From: Escherichia phage UGJNEcP3
Reading direction: 5' to 3' (one strand)
Length of the DNA: 64,000 nt
Sequence record: OV876907
In this document: piece by piece, positions 1,826 through 31,825 of the stretch
How the letters are laid out: each line of letters begins with the position of its first letter
How positions within the stretch are numbered: position 1 is the first letter of the stretch
Notes under the pieces: generated by a model
What the model was told of the DNA's origin: nothing
Databases searched by the model: none
Seen by the model: only the letters and a program-made list of their open reading frames with translations
Position numbers and translations under genes: made by a program

Positions 1826-2708
1826 CGTCCTCATAACTTGGCATTTCGTGCTCAGAATGGATATGGGCACCGAAATAAATGAATTCAGCTAGACCAGGAT
1901 GGAATACTAAACCAGGATTCTCGTGATAAATGATATGAGGTCTTGATTTCAGAATCTGATAATATTCAACCTTACTAGGTTTGAATTTAATAATCTCTAC
2001 ATCAGGACGATAGTCTTCACGTTTAAATGAATCATTCGGGTCGGTGATATAAAGGCGAGAACCTTCAGCTGCAGCTTGGTCTACAACTCTTTCGAATTGA
2101 TAACATTTATCAGAGATACGGAATGGATGGAAAATACCATCAATTTTAATAGGCGCTAGACCTTCAGAGTAACGCTCAATTACTGCGGGATTAATTACCT
2201 TTTGGTCTACAAAAATCTTATCAGAGGACGCACCTCGTGACACCAGGACGTCTTTCTGGCATTGATTCAGGACTGTAGTATAAATCGAACGTTCAACTGA
2301 GGACACGTCGGTATCAATAAACTCGTCGATATAATAACGAGGAACTTCAGGGTCCATTGTAATGTTAAAGTTGAATTGTACAGTCTGAGTGCCATCATAA
2401 CCTGTGATATCGGTTACTAATCCTGAGCAGTCATAGTATTCGATTAACGAATCAACAACGAACTCGTTTTCAGACCAAAAATGTTTACGAGTTTCATAAG
2501 CATTTTCTTTATACCAAAGCGGTACAAAATTCAGTTCAGGAAATAATTCAATGCATTCTTTGATATCGCTCGAATTTCTAGGATAAGCCAGATAATCACC
2601 TGGGCAAGCACGGTTTAAATGGAGTTGAAAATTACCGTCCTTAAGGACGGCATATTCACCTGTTTCGTAACTACGCATACTGAAAATAGGAACGATAAAC
2701 AGACTCAT
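1815..2708 (-). CDS. Hypothetical protein at the beta-glucosyltransferase position; candidate DNA base-modifying transferase
   Basis: 297 aa; no resemblance to T4 beta-gt as recalled; ATG overlaps the stop of the upstream TS-family gene (ATGA); last gene of the five-gene coupled operon. Confidence 0.6.
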   Translation of the reverse strand: MSLFIVPIFSMRSYETGEYAVLKDGNFQLHLNRACPGDYLAYPRNSSDIKECIELFPELNFVPLWYKENAYETRKHFWSENEFVVDSLIEYYDCSGLVTDITGYDGTQTVQFNFNITMDPEVPRYYIDEFIDTDVSSVERSIYTTVLNQCQKDVLVSRGASSDKIFVDQKVINPAVIERYSEGLAPIKIDGIFHPFRISDKCYQFERVVDQAAAEGSRLYITDPNDSFKREDYRPDVEIIKFKPSKVEYYQILKSRPHIIYHENPGLVFHPGLAEFIYFGAHIHSEHEMPSYEDVVL

Positions 2709-3403
2709 TTCAGGAATCCTCGAACATAGTCAAAATCACGTTCAAATACATGTGCACTAACCATAGTATGGGAATACGTACCCAGACCAACACCACACTG
2801 TTCAGCAATAAAGGCCATCAGTTTACCCTGCAGATAGAAATCCAGCTGCATAACGATAGCACAGTTCTGTGAACGCATATGAGTGTGTGCATACAGACGT
2901 CCATCACGAATATAATATGTCACCGAATCGGTACAAGGATATTCTAAGGATTCGTCAGAATCAAGGAGGGCTTGGTCTTGTTCTTGGAGAATCTGGAACA
3001 CAACTCTTCTTGAGTTAGGCTTCTCTTTAAGCTCTTTAAGTAAGGCTGGGAGTTGGGCCACAATTCGAGGTCCATAGAAAGTGTTGAAGTTTGCAGGCAA
3101 TACGTCACTTTTCGGCTTATCAATGAACTTAGCAACATTAGGGTATTCCTTAAATGCTTCGGCGGCGTCAGTACCACCGGAAATCATAAACTTCCAGAAA
3201 GATTCGGCATAATCATAGTTGATACGATTAATACGAGGGTCGGTGAATTTATAGGTGCTTGCATCCAGAACTTCAACTGAAGCCGAACCAATTTCATAAC
3301 AACGACCGATACGAGAATCAACTGCAAACTGTGGAGCTTCCAGGATTTCTTCGTTCATTTGTTTAAATGCATTTTCAAAACTAACAGCGGTAATGTGTTT
3401 CAT
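2705..3403 (-). CDS. 42: Thymidylate-synthase-family pyrimidine hydroxymethylase, dCMP hydroxymethylase-like (divergent)
   Basis: 232 aa; PNSRR, YPCT (candidate catalytic Cys) and MRSQNCAIVMQLD motifs align with the TS/dCMP-hydroxymethylase pattern; Asp at the position that is Asp in T4 dCH and Asn in TS; syntenic with T4 gene 42 but far more divergent than neighbouring core genes. Confidence 0.75.
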   Translation of the reverse strand: MKHITAVSFENAFKQMNEEILEAPQFAVDSRIGRCYEIGSASVEVLDASTYKFTDPRINRINYDYAESFWKFMISGGTDAAEAFKEYPNVAKFIDKPKSDVLPANFNTFYGPRIVAQLPALLKELKEKPNSRRVVFQILQEQDQALLDSDESLEYPCTDSVTYYIRDGRLYAHTHMRSQNCAIVMQLDFYLQGKLMAFIAEQCGVGLGTYSHTMVSAHVFERDFDYVRGFLK

Positions 3404-3936
3404 TTATTCACCTCATAATTAATGTATTCATTAAGACGTTTTAATTCTACCATATCGACGTTAAGCAAGTTATTATGGCCGTCGTGATTTAAGATTTTAA
3501 ACACGTTTTCAAAACATGTTTCATATTGGCGGATAGTTAGGTTGAACTCATCTTTAGTCAGTTTAATGAGGTCATCTTCAAAGTCTTTATCCAACGGATT
3601 ACGGGTTAAAATAACCTCAATGATATTGAATTCTTTTTTGAAATCAATCCAATCTGCTAGTTCTACATAAGGGTCCATTTCACCACGAAGGAATCCCGAG
3701 TAAACAATATTACTAGGATAACCACGGTCTAGGATGTAAACGAAATTAGGGTCTAAAAACTTATACAACGTCTCGACTAAAGCCTTGTCATTATCAGTTC
3801 CTAACGAAATACATTTACCATTAATCTTTTTAGGAAAATCAATAAGACGATATTTCTTATCAGATAAAAGGGTTTCGATTAAAGTAGACTTCCCGGAATT
3901 ATCCGGGCCGTCTATAACAATGATTTTTGGATTCAT
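3400..3936 (-). CDS. P-loop kinase, polynucleotide-kinase-like
   Basis: 178 aa; Walker A IVIDGPDNSGKST at the N-terminus, similar in layout to the T4 Pnk kinase domain; ATGA-coupled to neighbours on both sides. Confidence 0.7.
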   Translation of the reverse strand: MNPKIIVIDGPDNSGKSTLIETLLSDKKYRLIDFPKKINGKCISLGTDNDKALVETLYKFLDPNFVYILDRGYPSNIVYSGFLRGEMDPYVELADWIDFKKEFNIIEVILTRNPLDKDFEDDLIKLTKDEFNLTIRQYETCFENVFKILNHDGHNNLLNVDMVELKRLNEYINYEVNK

Positions 3937-4292
3937 GGATGATAGGCCTTATAACTATCAAGAGTTCCTTCGCGAACCATTTCTTTAAAGTGGTCAGGAC
4001 GAATTGCTCGGTCATCGATGATAAAAGTATAACTCGGCTTGTGTGTAAGCAAATTGTGATATTTCAATCCAATTTTTTCAAGGTTCTTAACCAATGCAGG
4101 AACTACTTCAACCAAGATTCGGCCTGGGCCGCATGAAGTCATACCACGGGCAGTGAACAATGTAATCTCATGACCTTCATCGTACAGCTTATTAATCATG
4201 GACACCATTTCGGTGTCCGGTTTAAAGTTTTCATAATCACGGTCATCTTGCCAGTGAGTAATGGTATTATCGATGTCAAAGCACAAATGCAT
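3933..4292 (-). CDS. HAD-superfamily phosphatase (Pnk-phosphatase/GmhB-like)
   Basis: Motifs FDIDNT (DxDxT), LFTAR and IIDDR; start placed at the second ATG (4290-4292), which has a GGAAGAAA Shine-Dalgarno, rather than the ORF-track start at 4307. Confidence 0.7.
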   Translation of the reverse strand: MHLCFDIDNTITHWQDDRDYENFKPDTEMVSMINKLYDEGHEITLFTARGMTSCGPGRILVEVVPALVKNLEKIGLKYHNLLTHKPSYTFIIDDRAIRPDHFKEMVREGTLDSYKAYHP

Positions 4293-5965
4293 TAAATTTT
4301 CTTCCATTGTTTGTGGAGTTCAGTAGAACCTGTAGGTTTATATTTTACACCAGTTTCCTGGTCAAGCAAAACCCACTTATCAGGGCATCGAGTGATAATT
4401 TGGGCCGTAATAGGGTCACGAACTTCATCGACAAATTCACCTGTAATAAGCTTACGCTTACGAGGATGCCGCTTCAGCAGCACACTCAGTTGATATAGAC
4501 CGTTGTAATAAGCGCCCAGAGCTTTCAGAGGGTTATTTTTAAAGTAACCTGCCAACGCCATCCAGATAACAGCAATCCAGAGCTTGTGCTTAAATGTACA
4601 CATTGGAATATCATCTAAAGGCATAACCTTTTCAATATCAACGAATACTCGAGTTCCATTACGAGTTAAGCCACCCCATAGAGGGTCAGAGTTAAATTTG
4701 TCATAACCATCGATAGAATAAAGCACCTTAGCTTCATCATAAATCGCAGGGCCTTTAGAACTATTACCAAAATAACCGCGTGGGTCGATGATTTTAATAT
4801 CACCTTCGTCCGACAGCATAATATTACTGTAGTGCGGGTCGCCGTGAATAAGTTGGTACGGTTCTTTATGTTCAGACAGAATTTCTAGTGCATGACGAAG
4901 AAGTTTTTCTGGGTCGCCTACCTTAAAGTCATTGACATGGGTAATGCCCTGTGGAGCAAAGCCTTCAATCAATCCAGCAATAGAAGCATTACGAATAAGG
5001 ACCTTGTCCAATACTTCTTTCTTAACATCGGAATACCATTGCTCATCGGATGGATTATCGATAGTTCCACCAAATGAACGTAATGCACTAATGACCTTAT
5101 AAACCATGAGGACTTTAGTTTCTTTAGACATAAACCGATAGGCATCTGCCATGGTGCGACCAAAGATACGTTCCATTTTAATGAATTCACCTGGAGCAAA
5201 GTCTACAATGCTCGGAACAAATTCAGAATCAATAGAATTATACCAATTGATTTCTTTAGATTGGATTTCTTTACCTAATTCGTTGGTAGGTACTTTAATA
5301 GCCAGATTCTCAGTGAACTCTAATTTATTAAATTCACGGTTAATTTCAGAATCTTCATGGGCCTTAGCCAGTTTCAATTTGTCACCGACATCAACTACAA
5401 AGTCCAGCTTACGTTCGGTCAAATGGACCATCGAATCTAGGTTATCAGCAAGGTCTTCGCCATAATTAGAACGGTTGAAGCCTGTCCAATTAGCCACCTG
5501 ATACAAACCAACCACACCACCGCCAGTACCAATTTCACGCAAGTACGGTTCTTCAAATGTAAAACGACAGTCAGTCCCGTAGGTATAGCAATAGTCGTTA
5601 TCCCACTCAACTTTATGACCCTCAGGAATGATGTCACACCAGTTAAACAAGACGTTATGGCCAATGATATCTTCAGCAATGCAATCGATAGCATGAGCTG
5701 AACCATTAGCCACATCTACGTTACGAATAGTGAATTTAGGCTTATCACTATTAATCATGTTAATGGATTTAATATAGCCTTTAACGAGGTCGTTAAATTT
5801 GCTGTGAATAACCAGAATAATTTCATCTGATTGGTTACTATACAAATCATACAAATGTTTTAATACAGTATGTTGTTTGTAGTTAACCAATACCTTCGGG
5901 ATTTCGTTAGTAATTGGATACAACCGTGAGCCAAGACCCGCGCCTAAAATAACAACCTTTTTCAT
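4292..5965 (-). CDS. Bifunctional sugar-phosphate nucleotidyltransferase / APH-type kinase fusion
   Basis: N-terminus KKVVILGAGLGSRLYPIT is the RmlA/GlmU-type G-x-G-x-R-L nucleotidyltransferase signature; C-terminal half has HGDPHYSNIM and IIDPRG (aminoglycoside/choline/sugar-1-kinase fold). Start trimmed to MKKVVIL (ATG 5963-5965, SD GAGGAA) because a TATAAT -10 overlaps the ORF-track start. Confidence 0.85.
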   Translation of the reverse strand: MKKVVILGAGLGSRLYPITNEIPKVLVNYKQHTVLKHLYDLYSNQSDEIILVIHSKFNDLVKGYIKSINMINSDKPKFTIRNVDVANGSAHAIDCIAEDIIGHNVLFNWCDIIPEGHKVEWDNDYCYTYGTDCRFTFEEPYLREIGTGGGVVGLYQVANWTGFNRSNYGEDLADNLDSMVHLTERKLDFVVDVGDKLKLAKAHEDSEINREFNKLEFTENLAIKVPTNELGKEIQSKEINWYNSIDSEFVPSIVDFAPGEFIKMERIFGRTMADAYRFMSKETKVLMVYKVISALRSFGGTIDNPSDEQWYSDVKKEVLDKVLIRNASIAGLIEGFAPQGITHVNDFKVGDPEKLLRHALEILSEHKEPYQLIHGDPHYSNIMLSDEGDIKIIDPRGYFGNSSKGPAIYDEAKVLYSIDGYDKFNSDPLWGGLTRNGTRVFVDIEKVMPLDDIPMCTFKHKLWIAVIWMALAGYFKNNPLKALGAYYNGLYQLSVLLKRHPRKRKLITGEFVDEVRDPITAQIITRCPDKWVLLDQETGVKYKPTGSTELHKQWKKI

Positions 5966-11931: not shown

Positions 11932-12630
11932 TTAGAACGAGTGGCTTGAGCCTGCTTCCATAGCCAATACATAAGAAGCTTGTGAACCTTCAAACTTGGC
12001 TGCGAAACGAGCATCCTGACCTTCACCACGAGCCCATAGCAATACATGGTAATCAGCCGGCATCATTTTCATATTGGTTTTGTTAATGATGAACTTAAAG
12101 TCAGGGCCATCATGGTCTGCAACCACTAAGGAATACAATGGACGTGCCAGGTCCTTATCATCAACTTGTTTGTAGCCATTGATTACAATTTTACCATTGT
12201 CTACAGTAATAGCAAATGTATCAATACCCAGACCGGAGGACACACGCATCAACTGTTGGTAATCTTCGGCTTTAAGGTCAAAAATAACTTCAGCCACTGG
12301 GAACGGAATAGCTTTGCTTGGGAATGCTATTGTGCTTGGGTCGGCAATAGGCCACTTAATAGTTGAACGTTGGTCTTTAATAATTAAGGTGGTTTGGTCT
12401 TCACTTACCGAAACTTCAGCACTTTCAGATACTAAAGACAGAATACTTAAGAAGCCGTTCAAATCATAAATTGCAGCTTCGATATCAAAGGTATCACTTA
12501 CAGTAGCTTCACCATAACTTGCACCTGTTACTGAACGGGTTAGAATAGTGTTACCAGGTTTAAGCATGATACCTGGGTTAATACCGGAGAAGTTTTTCAG
12601 AATGTTCAGAGTTTCTTTAGAGAATTTCAT
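11932..12630 (-). CDS. 45: Sliding clamp gp45
   Basis: 232 aa; close match to T4 gp45 along its length. Confidence 0.95.
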   Translation of the reverse strand: MKFSKETLNILKNFSGINPGIMLKPGNTILTRSVTGASYGEATVSDTFDIEAAIYDLNGFLSILSLVSESAEVSVSEDQTTLIIKDQRSTIKWPIADPSTIAFPSKAIPFPVAEVIFDLKAEDYQQLMRVSSGLGIDTFAITVDNGKIVINGYKQVDDKDLARPLYSLVVADHDGPDFKFIINKTNMKMMPADYHVLLWARGEGQDARFAAKFEGSQASYVLAMEAGSSHSF

Positions 12631-12654
12631 AATGTTTCCTTATCAAGACAAAAA

Positions 12655-13083
12655 TTAAGCAATAACGATCATTTGTTTACGAATGGATTCAGGCAGAGAT
12701 TCAATATACTCTGGAATCTGGGAAGCAACAATAGCACCGGCTTCAAGCAGTTGTTCGTCAAAATCTACGCAATAATCATCTTCGAGACGTTCAGAACCAT
12801 CACGGTCGATAACCAGTTTAGCACCTGCGGCCAGCGAATCGTTATAATGACGACGCATGATTTCTACCCACTTATCGGATACGTCGTTATCAATGATACC
12901 GTAGAGCATGAACTTGGTTTCTTGTGGAAGAGACTGCAGACGACGTGCAGAGTCGGTATCAATATTCAGTACCCATGATTTACGAATACGGTTTTGATTG
13001 TGTGGGTTGGAATCGGTACGAATGGTTTTAACTTGGATATCTTTAACAGTAATAGCGTTAGCAAACATAATATTTTCTCTCAT
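12655..13083 (-). CDS. rpbA: RpbA-like RNA-polymerase-binding protein (by position)
   Basis: 142 aa ORF between 45 and 46 as in T4; sequence itself not recognised; true start may be the internal MFANAITVK. Confidence 0.45.
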   Translation of the reverse strand: MRENIMFANAITVKDIQVKTIRTDSNPHNQNRIRKSWVLNIDTDSARRLQSLPQETKFMLYGIIDNDVSDKWVEIMRRHYNDSLAAGAKLVIDRDGSERLEDDYCVDFDEQLLEAGAIVASQIPEYIESLPESIRKQMIVIA

Positions 13084-13124
13084 TTGGTTGGTAAATGTAT
13101 TATAAATCTATATTTTAAAGCAAT

Positions 13125-13316
13125 TTAATCAAAGTACTCGTAGACAAACCATGCCGGATTTCTATTTGACATGATTTTATCATATTCTGACTTAAAAGCA
13201 TTTCGGAGATATTCTTCAGTAACAAGATGCTCATCTCCAGAGAAGTTGTTAACTAAAACGTATCTCTTTATTTCTGGAAAGGCCAACAAATGCTGGCCTG
13301 TTATAAAATCACTCAT
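13125..13316 (-). CDS. Hypothetical protein (45.2-like position)
   Basis: 63 aa ORF on the transcribed strand. Confidence 0.45.
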   Translation of the reverse strand: MSDFITGQHLLAFPEIKRYVLVNNFSGDEHLVTEEYLRNAFKSEYDKIMSNRNPAWFVYEYFD

Positions 13317-13999
13317 TATGAAGCATCCTTTAATTTACAATTATCAAAGTGCCATCGTTTCATAATGTTGTTAGAGCCAATTTTATCACAATATGGGCAC
13401 TTTACAGTTGGTCTGCTTTTAGCTTTTGCAGATTGTTTGCTTTTCATAGCCTGTTTTGCTTCGTCAGACCTAGAATTAAGGGCTATAGAAATTTTATCCC
13501 TTGTTTCTTGGCTATGAGTTTTTCCGAACATAGGGTTGTTCTCAGGCAAATATGTACCATTTCTTATATTACTCTGACGAATTTTTTCTATATGTTCTTT
13601 AGATTTATTTCTTAGCTCTAGGCATTTAGATTTCTTTCTAGTTTTAAAAAGGTTTTCATAAAATGAATACGGTCTATTTTTAGCAGCTATACTCTGTTTA
13701 AGTCTGGTTTCCTCTTTTATAAAAGGTGCGGCATTACCTCCTAAAGAAATATTATATGTAAGAGGGTTCTTTATAAATTCCTCATTGACTATAATTCTTT
13801 CCATTTGGATAGCCTCTTCTCTGGTATCAAAATTATAAAGTATTTCCTTTCTATGATTTTCCAAACCATATTTTTTAATAGAAGCTTTAATATATAAACC
13901 AGAGCCCATATACGAATCTTTAATATTTTCAGTACTATGTATCCCTACATAGTACTTATTATTAACTAAATTTATTATTTTGTAAACAAGATGTCTCAT
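13316..13999 (-). CDS. GIY-YIG homing endonuclease (Seg-like)
   Basis: 227 aa; N-terminal YKIINLVNNKYYVGIHS...GSG GIY-YIG signature, basic C-terminal DNA-binding region with CPYC; AT-rich gene inserted between 45.2 and 46. Confidence 0.85.
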   Translation of the reverse strand: MRHLVYKIINLVNNKYYVGIHSTENIKDSYMGSGLYIKASIKKYGLENHRKEILYNFDTREEAIQMERIIVNEEFIKNPLTYNISLGGNAAPFIKEETRLKQSIAAKNRPYSFYENLFKTRKKSKCLELRNKSKEHIEKIRQSNIRNGTYLPENNPMFGKTHSQETRDKISIALNSRSDEAKQAMKSKQSAKAKSRPTVKCPYCDKIGSNNIMKRWHFDNCKLKDAS

Positions 14000-15681
14000 T
14001 ATTCTAATACTGTAAAGCGGCCAACCTTCTTCATTTGTAAATGTTGTCCATACGATTGTGGGTCATGGTCTTTGTGTGAAATTATAAAGACATTAGAATC
14101 TTCCAAAGAATTTATAATATTTGATACACCTTTAATACCTTCTGCATCAAAACTTCCATCAAAGACCTCATCAAGAATAAGAGTAGATATATTAATGCCT
14201 GAAACCTTTGAAGCAATATCTCGCCAGGTAAATAACAGAGCCACATCTATTCTAGACTTTTCACCTTCACTAAATGAAGCATAACTAAAGTCTTCGCGTC
14301 CACGCGACTTAATCGTCTCATTGAACTCTTCGTCAAGAGAAAAACTATAATCCGCCTCTAACATCTTCAAATAAGAATTTATTTGCTTATTAAAGATAGG
14401 AATGTATTTCTTAATAATGGAACCTTTAATACCAGTGTCCTTCAACATTTCTGTCAGAATTCCACGGTGATATTTTTCCATTACCAATGACGATTTGGTA
14501 GAGACGATTTTATCAAGCTCTGCTTGAAGCGTGGCAATCTCTTCGGCATTACTTACGAACTCTGCAGCCGCTTGGTCAATTAATACTTTAACCTTTTTAG
14601 CTTTCTCGACAGCAGTAATGGCTTGCTGCTTATGAGTAGCTATCTGAGATTTAATAGCCAGCGCTTTATTACGTTGCTCGGTTACTTGGTCTTTAATAAG
14701 TTTGAGCTCTTGGTACTGCTCATTAATCTTATCCAAAGATTTTTGAAGCTCAAAGTTCTTATCCTTAATTTTAGTAAGGATGTTCCCATGTTCTTCCAAT
14801 CCTTGCATACATGTAGGGCAGTGACCACCTGTTTCGTATAACTTAACCACCTTTGTAAAGGTTGCCATATCATTTTTGATTGCAAACCCTTTATTACTCA
14901 GGTCACTCATGGAGTCGCTAGGGTCATCATCTACGATAACATTGAGTAATTCATCAGTCAGGAATTCTATGCTCGCTTTCGCAGTCCTGGCTTCTTTAAC
15001 GAGCTCATCATACATTAATTGTAGTCGTGCCGCATTCTCGCCGGATAATTTACGCTGACGCTCTTCGTTGTCATTATAAATTTTAATTTGCTGGGTAATA
15101 GAATCCTGTTTAACGTCTATCACCTGGATTTGGCTATTAGTCTCACGAATCAAAGATTTGTTCAACTTATCCATATCCGCTAATACAGAAACCTCTAAAA
15201 GGTCTTCCACCAGCTTTCGACGCGCTGGGGTTGACAAACCCATGAAGGGGGTATACCCTGCCGTGCCAAGAACGACAATCTGTTTGAAGCTTGCATAGGA
15301 CATTCCGATAAGCTGTTCAAATTCTGCTTGGAAGTCTTTACTGCTGGCAGATTCATCAAGACGTTCACCGCCACAAGAGATTTCAAAAACGTTCGGTTTT
15401 TGTCCGCGTTTGATATAGTATTCTTTGCCATCGTATTCCATCCACAGTTCGACCAAAAGGTCTTTCTTGTTACTTGAGTTAATCAACTGCCCTTTCTTAA
15501 CATCACGAAAAGGCTTACCGAACAGAGCAAATGTTACAGCTTCAAGGAATGTTGATTTCCCTGCACCATTTTTACCAGTGACTAAGGTCTTTTGGACCTT
15601 ATCAAGTTGGATTGTAATGGGCTGCTGCCCGACCGACATAATATTTTTATACGTTACTTTCTTTAACTTAAAAGTCTTCAT
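13999..15681 (-). CDS. 46: Recombination endonuclease subunit gp46 (SbcC/Rad50-like)
   Basis: Start trimmed to MKTFKLKKVTYKNIMSVGQ; Walker A GKNGAGKST; close match to T4 gp46. Confidence 0.93.
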   Translation of the reverse strand: MKTFKLKKVTYKNIMSVGQQPITIQLDKVQKTLVTGKNGAGKSTFLEAVTFALFGKPFRDVKKGQLINSSNKKDLLVELWMEYDGKEYYIKRGQKPNVFEISCGGERLDESASSKDFQAEFEQLIGMSYASFKQIVVLGTAGYTPFMGLSTPARRKLVEDLLEVSVLADMDKLNKSLIRETNSQIQVIDVKQDSITQQIKIYNDNEERQRKLSGENAARLQLMYDELVKEARTAKASIEFLTDELLNVIVDDDPSDSMSDLSNKGFAIKNDMATFTKVVKLYETGGHCPTCMQGLEEHGNILTKIKDKNFELQKSLDKINEQYQELKLIKDQVTEQRNKALAIKSQIATHKQQAITAVEKAKKVKVLIDQAAAEFVSNAEEIATLQAELDKIVSTKSSLVMEKYHRGILTEMLKDTGIKGSIIKKYIPIFNKQINSYLKMLEADYSFSLDEEFNETIKSRGREDFSYASFSEGEKSRIDVALLFTWRDIASKVSGINISTLILDEVFDGSFDAEGIKGVSNIINSLEDSNVFIISHKDHDPQSYGQHLQMKKVGRFTVLE

Positions 15682-15931
15682 CGTTATAAGCATCCTTGAT
15701 GCATGATTCAGCCATATGAATTAATGTTTCTGGAGTATCATCTACCATTACATTAAAGCTAAATTCTACAGCCCAATCGGTAGCAACATAAACTTTAATA
15801 AGCTCGCCGGTATCACGAGTGCTCACGGCTTCAAACCAGAACTTAATTGTACTAGGTTGACCATCATCATCAATAACTATACAGTCGTGTTCCAGTTCAA
15901 GTCCCGATTTTTTGAATTCATCTAAAGTCAT
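15668..15931 (-). CDS. Hypothetical protein between 47 and 46
   Basis: 87 aa ORF overlapping both neighbours by a few bases. Confidence 0.45.
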   Translation of the reverse strand: MTLDEFKKSGLELEHDCIVIDDDGQPSTIKFWFEAVSTRDTGELIKVYVATDWAVEFSFNVMVDDTPETLIHMAESCIKDAYNDEDF

Positions 15932-22622: not shown

Positions 22623-23051
22623 TCAGAATGCCTCATCAGAATAGCGAAGTTGAGCTTCAAGCCAATGGATATAATCAGCTGCGGCAGCAATCAGATTTGA
22701 TTCCTGGTCTGGTAATGAACCGGAATCTGCTAGTTCATAAAGTGAATTCTCAATCAAACGACCTTTATGACGTCCTGGGTGGTGACGTTCTTCAAATTCT
22801 TCAACTTCTTTAAGTTGATTCATTGTGGCATTGCAATAGAAGCACCAGAAGCAAGATTCGCGACTATTTACATGGAGATACACGCCATTCTTAATTTTAA
22901 CAGAAGTAATACCATCCGCATAATCAAGGTCACGAGCGGCAGTGGTAATAACCTTGAATACAACACCCTTCTTCAATTCAGGAAACTGCATCAGCAACTC
23001 TTCATCGTCGGCGATGATTTCAAATACTTTATTCACTAAATTCATACCCAA
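22623..23051 (-). CDS. Hypothetical protein
   Basis: 142 aa ORF. Confidence 0.5.
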   Translation of the reverse strand: MGMNLVNKVFEIIADDEELLMQFPELKKGVVFKVITTAARDLDYADGITSVKIKNGVYLHVNSRESCFWCFYCNATMNQLKEVEEFEERHHPGRHKGRLIENSLYELADSGSLPDQESNLIAAAADYIHWLEAQLRYSDEAF

Positions 23052-26477: not shown

Positions 26478-26655
26478 AGAATTTAGCGATTGGCCAGGTT
26501 ATAATAAAAACTATCCCAAACATAACAAGAACTGGCCAGATAAAGGTGGCAAACACTGCTTCACCACCTGAGTTAATTTCCATATGATTACGACCAATAA
26601 GGACAGTAATGAATCCTAATGCAAGGTACAGAAGAATAAAACCTGCGATTTCCAT
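26455..26655 (-). CDS. Hypothetical membrane protein
   Basis: 66 aa, two hydrophobic segments. Confidence 0.45.
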   Translation of the reverse strand: MEIAGFILLYLALGFITVLIGRNHMEINSGGEAVFATFIWPVLVMFGIVFIITWPIAKFYEKLFGL

Positions 26656-31639: not shown

Positions 31640-31822
31640 TCATTTCACATTTTGTTTAATAAAATTTAGCAATTCTTTAAGAGCTTTATCTTCTTCTTTA
31701 GAAAGCCTAGTACAATCATCAACCGAGTAATGGTGGCAAAATGCTGTTTCGAATCTAGCAACTGTACCGGCATAGGCCTCGATAAGCTCTTCAAGCTTTA
31801 AGTGCTTTTCTTTAGTTTTCAT
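31640..31822 (-). CDS. Hypothetical protein
   Basis: 60 aa ORF. Confidence 0.4.
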   Translation of the reverse strand: MKTKEKHLKLEELIEAYAGTVARFETAFCHHYSVDDCTRLSKEEDKALKELLNFIKQNVK

Positions 31823-31825
31823 AAA

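What the first reader, a model, noticed from the sequence alone, without database searches (positions are those of the whole stretch)
13316..13999. Free-standing GIY-YIG homing endonuclease inserted between 45.2 and 46
The ORF has the GIY-YIG catalytic module and a basic C-terminal DNA-binding region, and the gene is visibly AT-richer than its neighbours, as expected for a mobile Seg-type element. Its cleavage site is probably in the equivalent locus of related phages lacking it.
Basis: partly seen in the sequence, partly recalled or inferred. Interest (0 to 1): 0.5.

Follow-up and report, generated by a model that had tools for sequence, protein, structure and literature searches.

The report
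Seg-like homing endonuclease gene cassette
A selfish nuclease gene of a well-known phage type (a free-standing GIY-YIG "Seg-like" homing endonuclease) sits exactly at the junction of genes 46 and 45.2 of a T4-like coliphage; it came in together with about 360 bases of foreign gene 46 sequence, which makes it a clear but ordinary example of how such genes move between phages.

Summary

The gene is sporadic. Of 39 Dhakavirus genomes, 2 carry it, 31 have an empty junction, and 6 carry an unrelated HNH "mob-like" gene on the opposite strand at the same junction.

The new result concerns gene 46. Its last ~360 nt fall into three allele classes that follow the junction state. Classes are 70-82% identical to each other and mostly 96-100% within (phage FB is the exception). 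The first 1318 nt are 92-99% identical in all phages, regardless of state. The allele linked to this gene is nearer to T4 (78%) than to other Dhakavirus alleles (70-73%).

The mobile unit is therefore the gene plus the 3' end of gene 46, as in SegF/SegG intronless homing. Cleavage activity and the target site are untested. It is a new member of a known kind.

The parts
13316..13999 (-). Seg-like free-standing GIY-YIG homing endonuclease ORF (227 aa, stop codon included)
   Evidence: ORF; annotated 'homing endonuclease' in OV877765.1; PHROG 314 E 2.7e-50; the N-terminus aligns with the N-termini of homologues.
13724..13999 (-). GIY-YIG catalytic domain (residues 1-92)
13487..13603 (-). NUMOD3 DNA-binding motif (residues 133-171)
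   Evidence: Pfam PF07460, E 8e-8, 32.5 bits against a cutoff of 20.4.
13328..13408 (-). C-terminal CCHC finger CPYCDKIGSNNIMKRWHFDNC (residues 198-224; C201, C204, H217, C221)
   Evidence: Nearly invariant in the homologue alignment. Modelled as two short strands plus a helix, pLDDT 93-96. 67% identical over 33 aa to the last finger of the mob-like endonuclease of phage FB. Absent from all T4 Seg and Mob proteins.
13996..14001 (-). Upstream junction UAAUGA: the gene 46 stop codon (UAA) overlaps the endonuclease start codon (AUG) by one base
   Evidence: Read from the sequence. T4 nrdA/mobE has the same arrangement, interpreted there as translational coupling (PMC2988022).
13314..13318 (-). 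Downstream junction UAAUG: the endonuclease stop codon overlaps the 45.2 start codon by one base. ATAATGAG occurs at both ends of the insert.
   Evidence: The N-terminus of gp45.2 (MSDFITG) is unchanged from the empty allele.
14000..14362 (-). Foreign 3' end of gene 46, linked to the endonuclease gene (inferred co-converted flank). It encodes the Walker B and H-loop end of gp46.
   Evidence: 70-73% identical to other Dhakavirus alleles and 78% to T4, while gene 46 nt 1-1318 are 92-99% identical among Dhakavirus. UP19 against JS98 shows 99 differences in 14000-14362 and sparse SNPs on either side. GC 34.7% against 41.0%. Apart from UGJNEcP4 and UP19, no record among 50,697 phage records exceeds 86% identity.
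13281..14379 (-). Block identical between UGJNEcP4 and UP19 (endonuclease gene + gene 46 tract + first 35 nt of 45.2)
   Evidence: No differences over 1099 bp; this is the longest identical run in the 33.4 kb compared (overall identity 94.9%), but the next runs are 998 and 935 bp.
13999..15681 (-). Gene 46 (Rad50/SbcC-like recombination nuclease subunit), the probable target gene
   Evidence: PHROG 77 E 3e-190; annotation.
13125..13316 (-). Gene 45.2, immediately downstream
   Evidence: Pfam Gp45_2, E 1e-27.

Best explanation
The ORF encodes a Seg-type, free-standing GIY-YIG homing endonuclease. It forms a mobile cassette together with the last ~360 nt of gene 46.

Proposed mechanism:
1. The gene has no recognisable promoter or Shine-Dalgarno sequence of its own. 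It is most likely transcribed as part of the 47-46-45.2 message and translated at a low level by termination-reinitiation at the UAAUGA overlap with gene 46.
2. In a mixed infection with a Dhakavirus lacking the gene, the enzyme would cut that phage's DNA in or near the 3' end of gene 46 or the 46/45.2 junction.
3. The break is resected until homology is reached (upstream of about nt 1320 of gene 46, and in 45.2) and repaired from the endonuclease-bearing genome.
4. This copies the endonuclease gene and the recoded gene 46 end into the recipient. The recoded gene 46 end probably also protects the carrier from self-cleavage.

Shown here: the fold and catalytic motifs, the free-standing position, the sporadic distribution, the foreign composition, the linkage of the gene 46 3' allele to junction state, and the block boundaries.

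Inferred only: nuclease activity, the position of the cleavage site, translational coupling and self-immunity.
For: - Free-standing: no Rfam family in 12500-14800.
- Sporadic: 2 Seg-like, 6 mob-like and 31 empty junctions among 39 Dhakavirus phages.
- Foreign composition: 30.1% GC, the lowest 684-bp window in 64 kb.
- Rare lineage: the nearest other homologue is 39-40% identical, in 50,697 phage records, IMG/VR and 5.8 billion proteins.
- Cassette structure: gene 46 nt 1319-1680 form three allele classes that follow junction state, while nt 1-1318 do not. For example, UP19 (Seg-like) is 99% identical to IME281 (mob-like) and 98% to JS98 (empty) in the first 1318 nt. Against JS98, UP19 looks like a JS98 backbone with a replaced block running from about 14362 to 13316.
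- Literature: free-standing T4 endonucleases cut hundreds to thousands of bp from their own gene and co-convert flanking sequence. Many are promoter-less cassettes that overlap the upstream ORF, and mobE has the same UAAUGA arrangement (PMC2988022).
Against: - No cleavage assay or cross has been done, so activity is inferred.
- Pfam GIY-YIG models score below their thresholds.
- The catalytic Arg of I-TevI (R27) has no alignable counterpart. The same is true of T4 SegA-E.
- Only two copies exist and they are identical at the DNA level, so selection on the ORF cannot be measured.
- The 1099-bp block shared by the two carriers is the longest identical run but not an outlier (998 and 935 bp elsewhere). 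It could reflect shared descent plus flank shuffling rather than a recent homing event.
- The donor lineage of the gene 46 tract is unsampled: the best match is FB at 84-86%, which carries the other endonuclease.
Confidence: 0.8

Rival explanations
1. The gene is a currently inactive or silent remnant. It persists only because it is wedged between coupled essential and conserved genes and linked to a diverged gene 46 end that suppresses crossovers. UGJNEcP4 and UP19 share the block by descent, and ordinary recombination has shuffled their flanks.
For: Identical runs of 841-998 bp occur elsewhere between the two phages. The gene has no promoter or ribosome-binding site of its own. Only 2 of 39 genomes carry it. 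About 27% divergence within the tract would block crossovers inside it.
Against: The ORF is full length with every family-invariant residue intact. Decaying endonuclease genes in T4 (mobA, I-TevIII) are truncated. The precise stop/start overlaps at both ends suggest maintained expression.
Confidence: 0.12
2. The enzyme is active, but its recognition site spans or lies beside the 46/45.2 overlap itself or the 5' end of 45.2, not the inside of gene 46. On this view the foreign gene 46 tract is only a leftover of the original cross-genus acquisition.
For: Both unrelated endonuclease genes landed within a few bases of the same ATGA overlap. The insertion disrupts that sequence, which alone would give immunity. 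The tract's origin from a non-Dhakavirus donor (closer to T4) fits a single ancient event.
Against: The gene 46 3' allele classes follow junction state for both endonucleases, whereas the 45.2 side shows no private allele. Free-standing T4 endonucleases usually cut at a distance from their gene (PMC2988022).
Confidence: 0.3
3. The protein has been co-opted for something other than homing, for example general exclusion of competing phages, or DNA-binding regulation of the 45.2/rpbA/45 transcription unit.
For: I-TevI also acts as an autorepressor (PMC2988022). A MotA-box-like TGCTTCA lies at the 3' end of the gene, 12 nt from TATAAC.
Against: That -10 element lacks the conserved final T, and a better middle-promoter match already lies upstream of rpbA. 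Being present in only 2 of 39 relatives argues against a needed host function.
Confidence: 0.05

Closest known systems
T4 SegD and SegB (also SegC, SegE, SegA): free-standing GIY-YIG endonucleases
   Same: The catalytic domain is 51% (SegD, SegB), 48% (SegC), 47% (SegE) and 39% (SegA) identical, with the same GIY...YIG...YxGSG...E...N motif pattern. It is intergenic and of similar size (205-223 aa).
   Different: There is no detectable similarity beyond residue ~94-110. None of the T4 Seg proteins has the CPxC...WHFDNC finger. T4 has no endonuclease gene between 46 and 45.2.
T4 SegF and SegG 'intronless homing' (Belle 2002; Liu 2003, as summarised in PMC2988022 and PMC2330249)
   Same: A promoter-less cassette sits directly downstream of a conserved gene that is the presumed target. 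A flanking stretch of that gene travels with the endonuclease gene. Cleavage is expected at a distance from the insertion point.
   Different: Cleavage, marker exclusion and co-conversion were shown experimentally for SegF and SegG. Here they are only inferred from comparative sequence. SegF is only 29% identical, and SegG gave no BLASTP match at E <= 10.
T4 mobE (HNH) at the nrdA/nrdB junction
   Same: Identical UAAUGA overlap of the upstream gene's stop codon with the endonuclease start codon, no translation initiation region of its own, and dependence on upstream promoters (PMC2988022; sequence).
   Different: A different nuclease family (HNH against GIY-YIG). No terminator was found in the sense orientation here.
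I-TevI (intron-encoded GIY-YIG endonuclease of T4 td)
   Different: I-TevI lies inside a group I intron. This gene is free-standing. The I-TevI finger is CX2C...CX2C in the linker, whereas here a CCHC finger sits at the C-terminal end.
Mob-like HNH endonuclease at the same 46/45.2 junction in Dhakavirus FB, MX01, Bp7, KIT01, 04086 and IME281
   Same: Same junction (within a few bases). It also has its own linked gene 46 3' allele. It carries three CCHC fingers, two of them with the CPHC...WHFDNC motif; the last finger in FB is 67% identical to the finger here.
   Different: An HNH catalytic domain (PHROG 655, E 3e-66), the opposite strand, short spacers on both sides, and it alters the first codons of 45.2.

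Membership tests
GIY-YIG nuclease superfamily | GIY and YIG tripeptide motifs in the first two beta-strands | tested here: met
   VYK (Y6) and YVG (Y17, G19). Y6, Y17 and G19 are invariant in 40 homologues and align with I-TevI GIY/YVG.
GIY-YIG nuclease superfamily | Conserved catalytic Glu and Asn (I-TevI E75, N90) | tested here: met
   E67 and N83 are invariant. They align with the I-TevI ERE and YN positions.
GIY-YIG nuclease superfamily | Conserved Arg of motif B (I-TevI R27) | tested here: inconclusive
   No conserved Arg appears in the alignment. The region is YxGSG...K43 (Y30 and S33 invariant, K43 nearly so). T4 SegA-E show the same replacement, and SegA, B, C and E are listed as active in PMC2988022 Table 1.
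GIY-YIG nuclease superfamily | GIY-YIG alpha/beta fold | tested here: met
GIY-YIG nuclease superfamily | Pfam PF01541 or PF19835 above the gathering score | tested here: not met
   PF01541 scores 14.6 bits (cutoff 22.6) and PF19835 scores 16.2 bits (cutoff 25). This is a limit of profile sensitivity rather than a missing motif, since PHROG 314 matches at E 2.7e-50.
Free-standing (Seg-type) homing endonuclease gene | Located between genes, not inside an intron or intein | tested here: met
   No Rfam family in 12500-14800. Genes 46 and 45.2 are complete on either side.
Free-standing (Seg-type) homing endonuclease gene | Presence/absence polymorphism among close relatives at an otherwise collinear locus | tested here: met
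   2 of 39 Dhakavirus phages carry it, and 31 have genes 46 and 45.2 overlapping by ATGA.
Free-standing (Seg-type) homing endonuclease gene | Flanking sequence is transferred with the gene (co-conversion) | tested here: met
   Comparative evidence only. The last ~360 nt of gene 46 form a private allele linked to the gene, with sharp boundaries against a JS98-like backbone in UP19. No cross was performed.
Free-standing (Seg-type) homing endonuclease gene | Site-specific double-strand cleavage of the allele that lacks the gene | not testable with these tools
   Needs protein and DNA from JS98-type phage.
Free-standing (Seg-type) homing endonuclease gene | Endonuclease-dependent over-inheritance (marker exclusion) in mixed infection | not testable with these tools
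   Needs phage crosses with wild-type and catalytic-mutant donors.

The most novel reading that the evidence does not exclude
The 46/45.2 junction of Dhakavirus may be a contested landing site. Two unrelated nucleases (GIY-YIG and HNH) carry homologous CCHC 'WHFDNC' fingers and would compete for the same target in the essential Rad50-like gene 46. Each carries its own recoded, cleavage-resistant gene 46 end, so endonuclease rivalry would drive allelic replacement of the Walker B/H-loop end of a recombination enzyme that homing itself depends on.
Probability: 0.2. Interest if true: 0.5.

Novelty: new member of a known kind. Interest (0 to 1): 0.3.

Why it matters
Seg-type endonucleases are textbook selfish genes of T4-like phages, so the gene itself is no surprise, and the public record already labels it a homing endonuclease.

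What this locus adds is an unusually clean natural example. Near-isogenic phages differ only by a cassette made of an endonuclease gene plus ~360 nt of gene 46: UP19 against JS98 and IME281 are 98-99% identical in the rest of gene 46. Three junction states exist, and two unrelated endonucleases use the same junction.

This gives a ready experimental system for three questions:
- intronless homing outside T4/T2;
- mapping a new Seg target in an essential recombination gene;
- testing whether rival endonucleases exclude each other.

It also matters for phage-therapy cocktails that mix Dhakavirus isolates, because such cassettes bias recombination outcomes.

Tried and rejected
- **Group I intron or other RNA element around the ORF:** no Rfam match at E <= 1.
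- **T4 late promoter:** no TATAAATA near the gene; the nearest of the 4 in the window is about 19 kb away.
- **Sigma-70-like promoters and terminators in 12900-14500:** no more than chance. The one terminator-like hairpin is followed by a T-run only on the antisense strand. The 5' region as a whole does not fold better than shuffles (z -1.0).
- **Middle promoter at the endonuclease/45.2 junction:** TGCTTCA-N12-TATAAC matches a relaxed pattern but fails the TAnnnT -10 rule. Rejected as evidence.
- **PDB sequence search:** no meaningful hit. Only the fold comparison found I-TevI.
- **Conserved context among relatives:** the nearest homologues (Vibrio phage ValKK3 at 39%, metagenome protein P0002 at 40%, and 80 IMG/VR loci) are not next to the 3' end of a gene 46 homologue. 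Context therefore gives no clue to the target.
- **The 1099-bp identical block as proof of recent transfer:** downgraded after a 33-kb comparison showed runs of 841-998 bp elsewhere.
- **The shared zinc finger as evidence that the Seg-like and mob-like genes exchanged a targeting module:** rejected as specific evidence, because the finger is nearly universal in the Seg-like homologue set.
- **Literature search for UGJNEcP4:** nothing found.

Full report
**1. The observation**

The window is 100% identical to Escherichia phage UGJNEcP4 (OV877765.1, Straboviridae, Dhakavirus). A 227-codon ORF lies on the minus strand at 13316-13999. Gene 46 (13999-15681; PHROG 77 SbcC-like, E 3e-190) is upstream. 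Gene 45.2 (13125-13316; Pfam Gp45_2, E 1e-27) is downstream, followed by rpbA and gene 45. The public record already calls the ORF 'homing endonuclease'.

At 30.1% GC, against 39.0% (sd 2.2) for 684-bp windows, the ORF is the lowest-GC stretch of its size in the 64 kb. All 15 lowest windows fall on it. It is the only Seg/Mob-type gene that tblastn finds in the window with T4 Seg and Mob queries.

**2. The protein**

- **Family matches.** PHROG 314 (homing endonuclease) matches end to end at E 2.7e-50. The Pfam GIY-YIG models stay below threshold (PF01541 at 14.6 bits, PF19835 at 16.2 bits), while NUMOD3 (residues 133-171) passes at E 8e-8.
- **Conserved residues.** In an alignment with 39 homologues, Y6, Y17, G19, Y30, S33, E67 and N83 are invariant. 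C201, P202, C204, W216, H217, F218, D219, N220 and C221 are nearly so.
- **Comparison with T4.** The first ~94 residues are 51% identical to SegD and SegB, 48% to SegC, 47% to SegE and 39% to SegA. The rest resembles no T4 Seg or Mob protein, and none of them has the CPxC...WHFDNC finger.
- **C-terminal half.** It is strongly basic: 32 K+R against 14 D+E, pI 10.0.
- **One gap.** The motif-B arginine of I-TevI has no alignable counterpart. The same YxGSG replacement occurs in T4 SegA-E, four of which are listed as active enzymes in PMC2988022.

**3. Free-standing and precisely embedded**

No Rfam family matches 12500-14800 on either strand. In relatives without the gene, genes 46 and 45.2 overlap by ATGA. 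Here the gene 46 stop codon overlaps the endonuclease start (GAA-UAAUGA-GAC). The endonuclease stop codon in turn overlaps the 45.2 start (UCA-UAAUG-AGU). ATAATGAG is therefore present at both ends, and the N-terminus of gp45.2 is unchanged.

No late promoter motif, no convincing sigma-70 or MotA-type promoter and no Shine-Dalgarno sequence precede the ORF. The review of T4 mobile elements describes exactly this class: promoter-less cassettes that overlap the upstream ORF. T4 mobE has the identical UAAUGA arrangement with nrdA, which is read there as translational coupling that keeps endonuclease levels low (PMC2988022).

**4. Distribution**

In 50,697 phage records only UGJNEcP4 and UP19 carry the gene, with identical protein. 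The next best match is 39% identical (Vibrio phage ValKK3). In 5.8 billion proteins the next best is 40%, and in IMG/VR 38%. Those relatives lie in unrelated contexts.

I classified 39 distinct Dhakavirus phages by the span of the gene 45 to gene 46 match and checked eleven of them by annotation. Two have this gene, 31 have the empty ATGA junction, and six (FB, MX01, Bp7, KIT01, 04086, IME281) have a 238-aa ORF on the opposite strand at the same junction.

That ORF is an HNH 'mob-like' endonuclease (PHROG 655, E 3e-66, with an ERHHIIP...N...H motif). It has three CCHC fingers, two of them of the CPHC...WHFDNC type. Its insertion resumes homology a few bases further into 45.2 and changes the first codons of 45.2.

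**5. The main new result: the 3' end of gene 46 travels with the endonuclease gene**

- **First 1318 nt of gene 46.** All Dhakavirus phages compared are 92-99% identical, with no relation to junction state. UP19 (Seg-like) is 99% identical to IME281 (mob-like) and 98% to JS98 (empty). All are 67-69% identical to T4.
- **Last 362 nt.** The sequences fall into three classes that follow junction state: Seg-like (100% within the class), mob-like (98-99%, with FB an outlier) and empty (96-98%). Identity between classes is only 70-82%.
- **Origin of the Seg-linked allele.** It is closer to T4 (78%) than to any other Dhakavirus allele (70-73%). Its GC and GC3 are lower (34.9% and 27%, against 41.0% and 37% in JS98). 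Apart from the two carriers, no record in the phage collection exceeds 86% identity to it. The best is FB, then Tequatrovirus at 79%.
- **Nature of the changes.** Most differences are synonymous. The encoded Walker B (LILDEVFDG) and H-loop (FIISH.DH) segments are kept.
- **Boundaries.** Against JS98, UP19 shows sparse SNPs, then 99 differences between 14362 and 14000, then the endonuclease gene, then sparse SNPs again from 13279. UGJNEcP4 and UP19 are identical from 13281 to 14379 and differ by about 5% outside that block.
- **FB.** Compared with KIT01, FB carries a contiguous 600-bp divergent patch covering the 3' end of the mob gene and the gene 46 end. That patch is 84-86% identical to the Seg-linked allele. 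An unsampled lineage with this type of gene 46 end therefore exists.

**6. Interpretation**

The transferable unit is the last ~360 nt of gene 46 plus the endonuclease gene. The gene 46 part has a non-Dhakavirus, lower-GC origin. This pattern is expected for intronless homing as described for SegF (target gene 56) and SegG (target gene 32). In that model the enzyme cuts the endonuclease-free genome at some distance from the insertion point. The break is resected to the first usable homology. Repair then copies both the endonuclease gene and the flanking donor sequence (PMC2988022; PMC2330249).

The tract is about 27% diverged. Strand invasion can therefore only start upstream of about nt 1320 of gene 46 and downstream in 45.2. 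This explains why the block boundaries coincide with the edges of the diverged tract. The recoded gene 46 end would also make the carrier resistant to its own enzyme.

I put 0.8 on 'Seg-type homing endonuclease cassette that has moved as described'. Within that, the cut site lying inside the gene 46 end rather than at the junction is roughly 2:1.

**7. Caveats**

- Nothing here shows catalysis.
- The 1099-bp identical block is the longest in the 33.4 kb compared, but runs of 998, 935, 877 and 841 bp exist elsewhere. Shared descent with recombining flanks could therefore explain it as well as a recent second homing event.
- With only two identical copies, selection cannot be measured.
- The ATAATGAG repeat at both ends exceeds what the stop/start overlaps require by only three bases. 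It is weak evidence for microhomology-mediated first insertion.
- The shared finger between the two rival endonucleases is a family-wide module: it is present in nearly all of the 39 aligned homologues. It is not evidence of a specific exchange.

**8. Comparison and novelty**

In how it works, the closest systems are T4 SegF and SegG (cassette downstream of its target gene, co-converted flank) and mobE (UAAUGA coupling). By sequence, it is a Seg protein nearest to SegD and SegB in the catalytic domain, with a different DNA-binding half (NUMOD3 plus a CCHC finger). It has no orthologue in T4, and T4 has nothing between 46 and 45.2.

It is a new member of a known kind, already labelled generically in the database. 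Interest is modest (0.3). The gene is expected for this phage group. The three-state junction and the strict allele linkage in an essential recombination gene nevertheless make it a good experimental system.

Noticed in passing
window 15668-15693; L004 (JS98) 3899-4111: The window, UP19, MX01, KIT01, ABTNLS3 and 04086 lack gene 46.1 between 46 and 46.2. JS98, FB and Bp7 carry a 207-213 bp 46.1 there. This is another small presence/absence polymorphism about 1.7 kb from the endonuclease gene.
   Followed up: partly
L005 (MX01) 267-833 and L006 (Bp7) 255-833, between genes 45 and 44: MX01 and Bp7 carry a second, different Seg-like ORF (188 aa; PHROG 314, E 8.5e-16) between genes 45 and 44. It is absent from the window, so this replication-gene cluster holds several endonuclease landing sites.
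   Followed up: partly
window 13931-13956: A perfect 11-bp inverted repeat with a 4-nt loop (AGTACTATGTA-GGGA-TACATAGTACT on the mRNA strand) lies inside the endonuclease 5' coding region, over the YIG motif codons. It persists in the centroid RNA fold. No U-run follows it on the sense strand, so it is not a sense terminator like those reported in T4 mobE and segF. Its function is unknown.
   Followed up: partly
window 13300-13325 (-) and 13099-13122 (-): TGCTTCA-N12-TATAAC straddles the endonuclease stop codon and the 45.2 start. It resembles a MotA box, but the -10 element lacks the final T. A full middle-promoter-like match (TGCTTTA...TATAAT) lies just upstream of rpbA. The TGCTTYA-N11-13-TANNNT pattern is enriched in the window (8 found against 1.65 expected).
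   Followed up: partly
L003 (FB) 2701-3300: Phage FB differs from KIT01 by one contiguous ~600-bp patch (56-78% identity) spanning the 3' end of the mob-like gene (its C-terminal fingers) and the last ~300 nt of gene 46. Within gene 46 the patch resembles the Seg-linked allele (84-86%). This implies an unsampled lineage in which a mob-like variant sits next to that type of gene 46 end.
   Followed up: partly
L006 (Bp7) 3171-4671: Gene 46 of Bp7 is annotated in two pieces, and its 3' end translates out of frame in my alignment. This is either frameshift sequencing errors or a disrupted gene 46 next to the mob-like endonuclease gene.
   Followed up: no
window 1-36000 against L098 (UP19): UGJNEcP4 and UP19 are mosaics: 94.9% identical overall, with alternating identical runs (up to ~1 kb), stretches of 80-90% identity, and three unalignable gaps at window 22776-23041, 26497-26649 and 31643-31825.
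   Followed up: no
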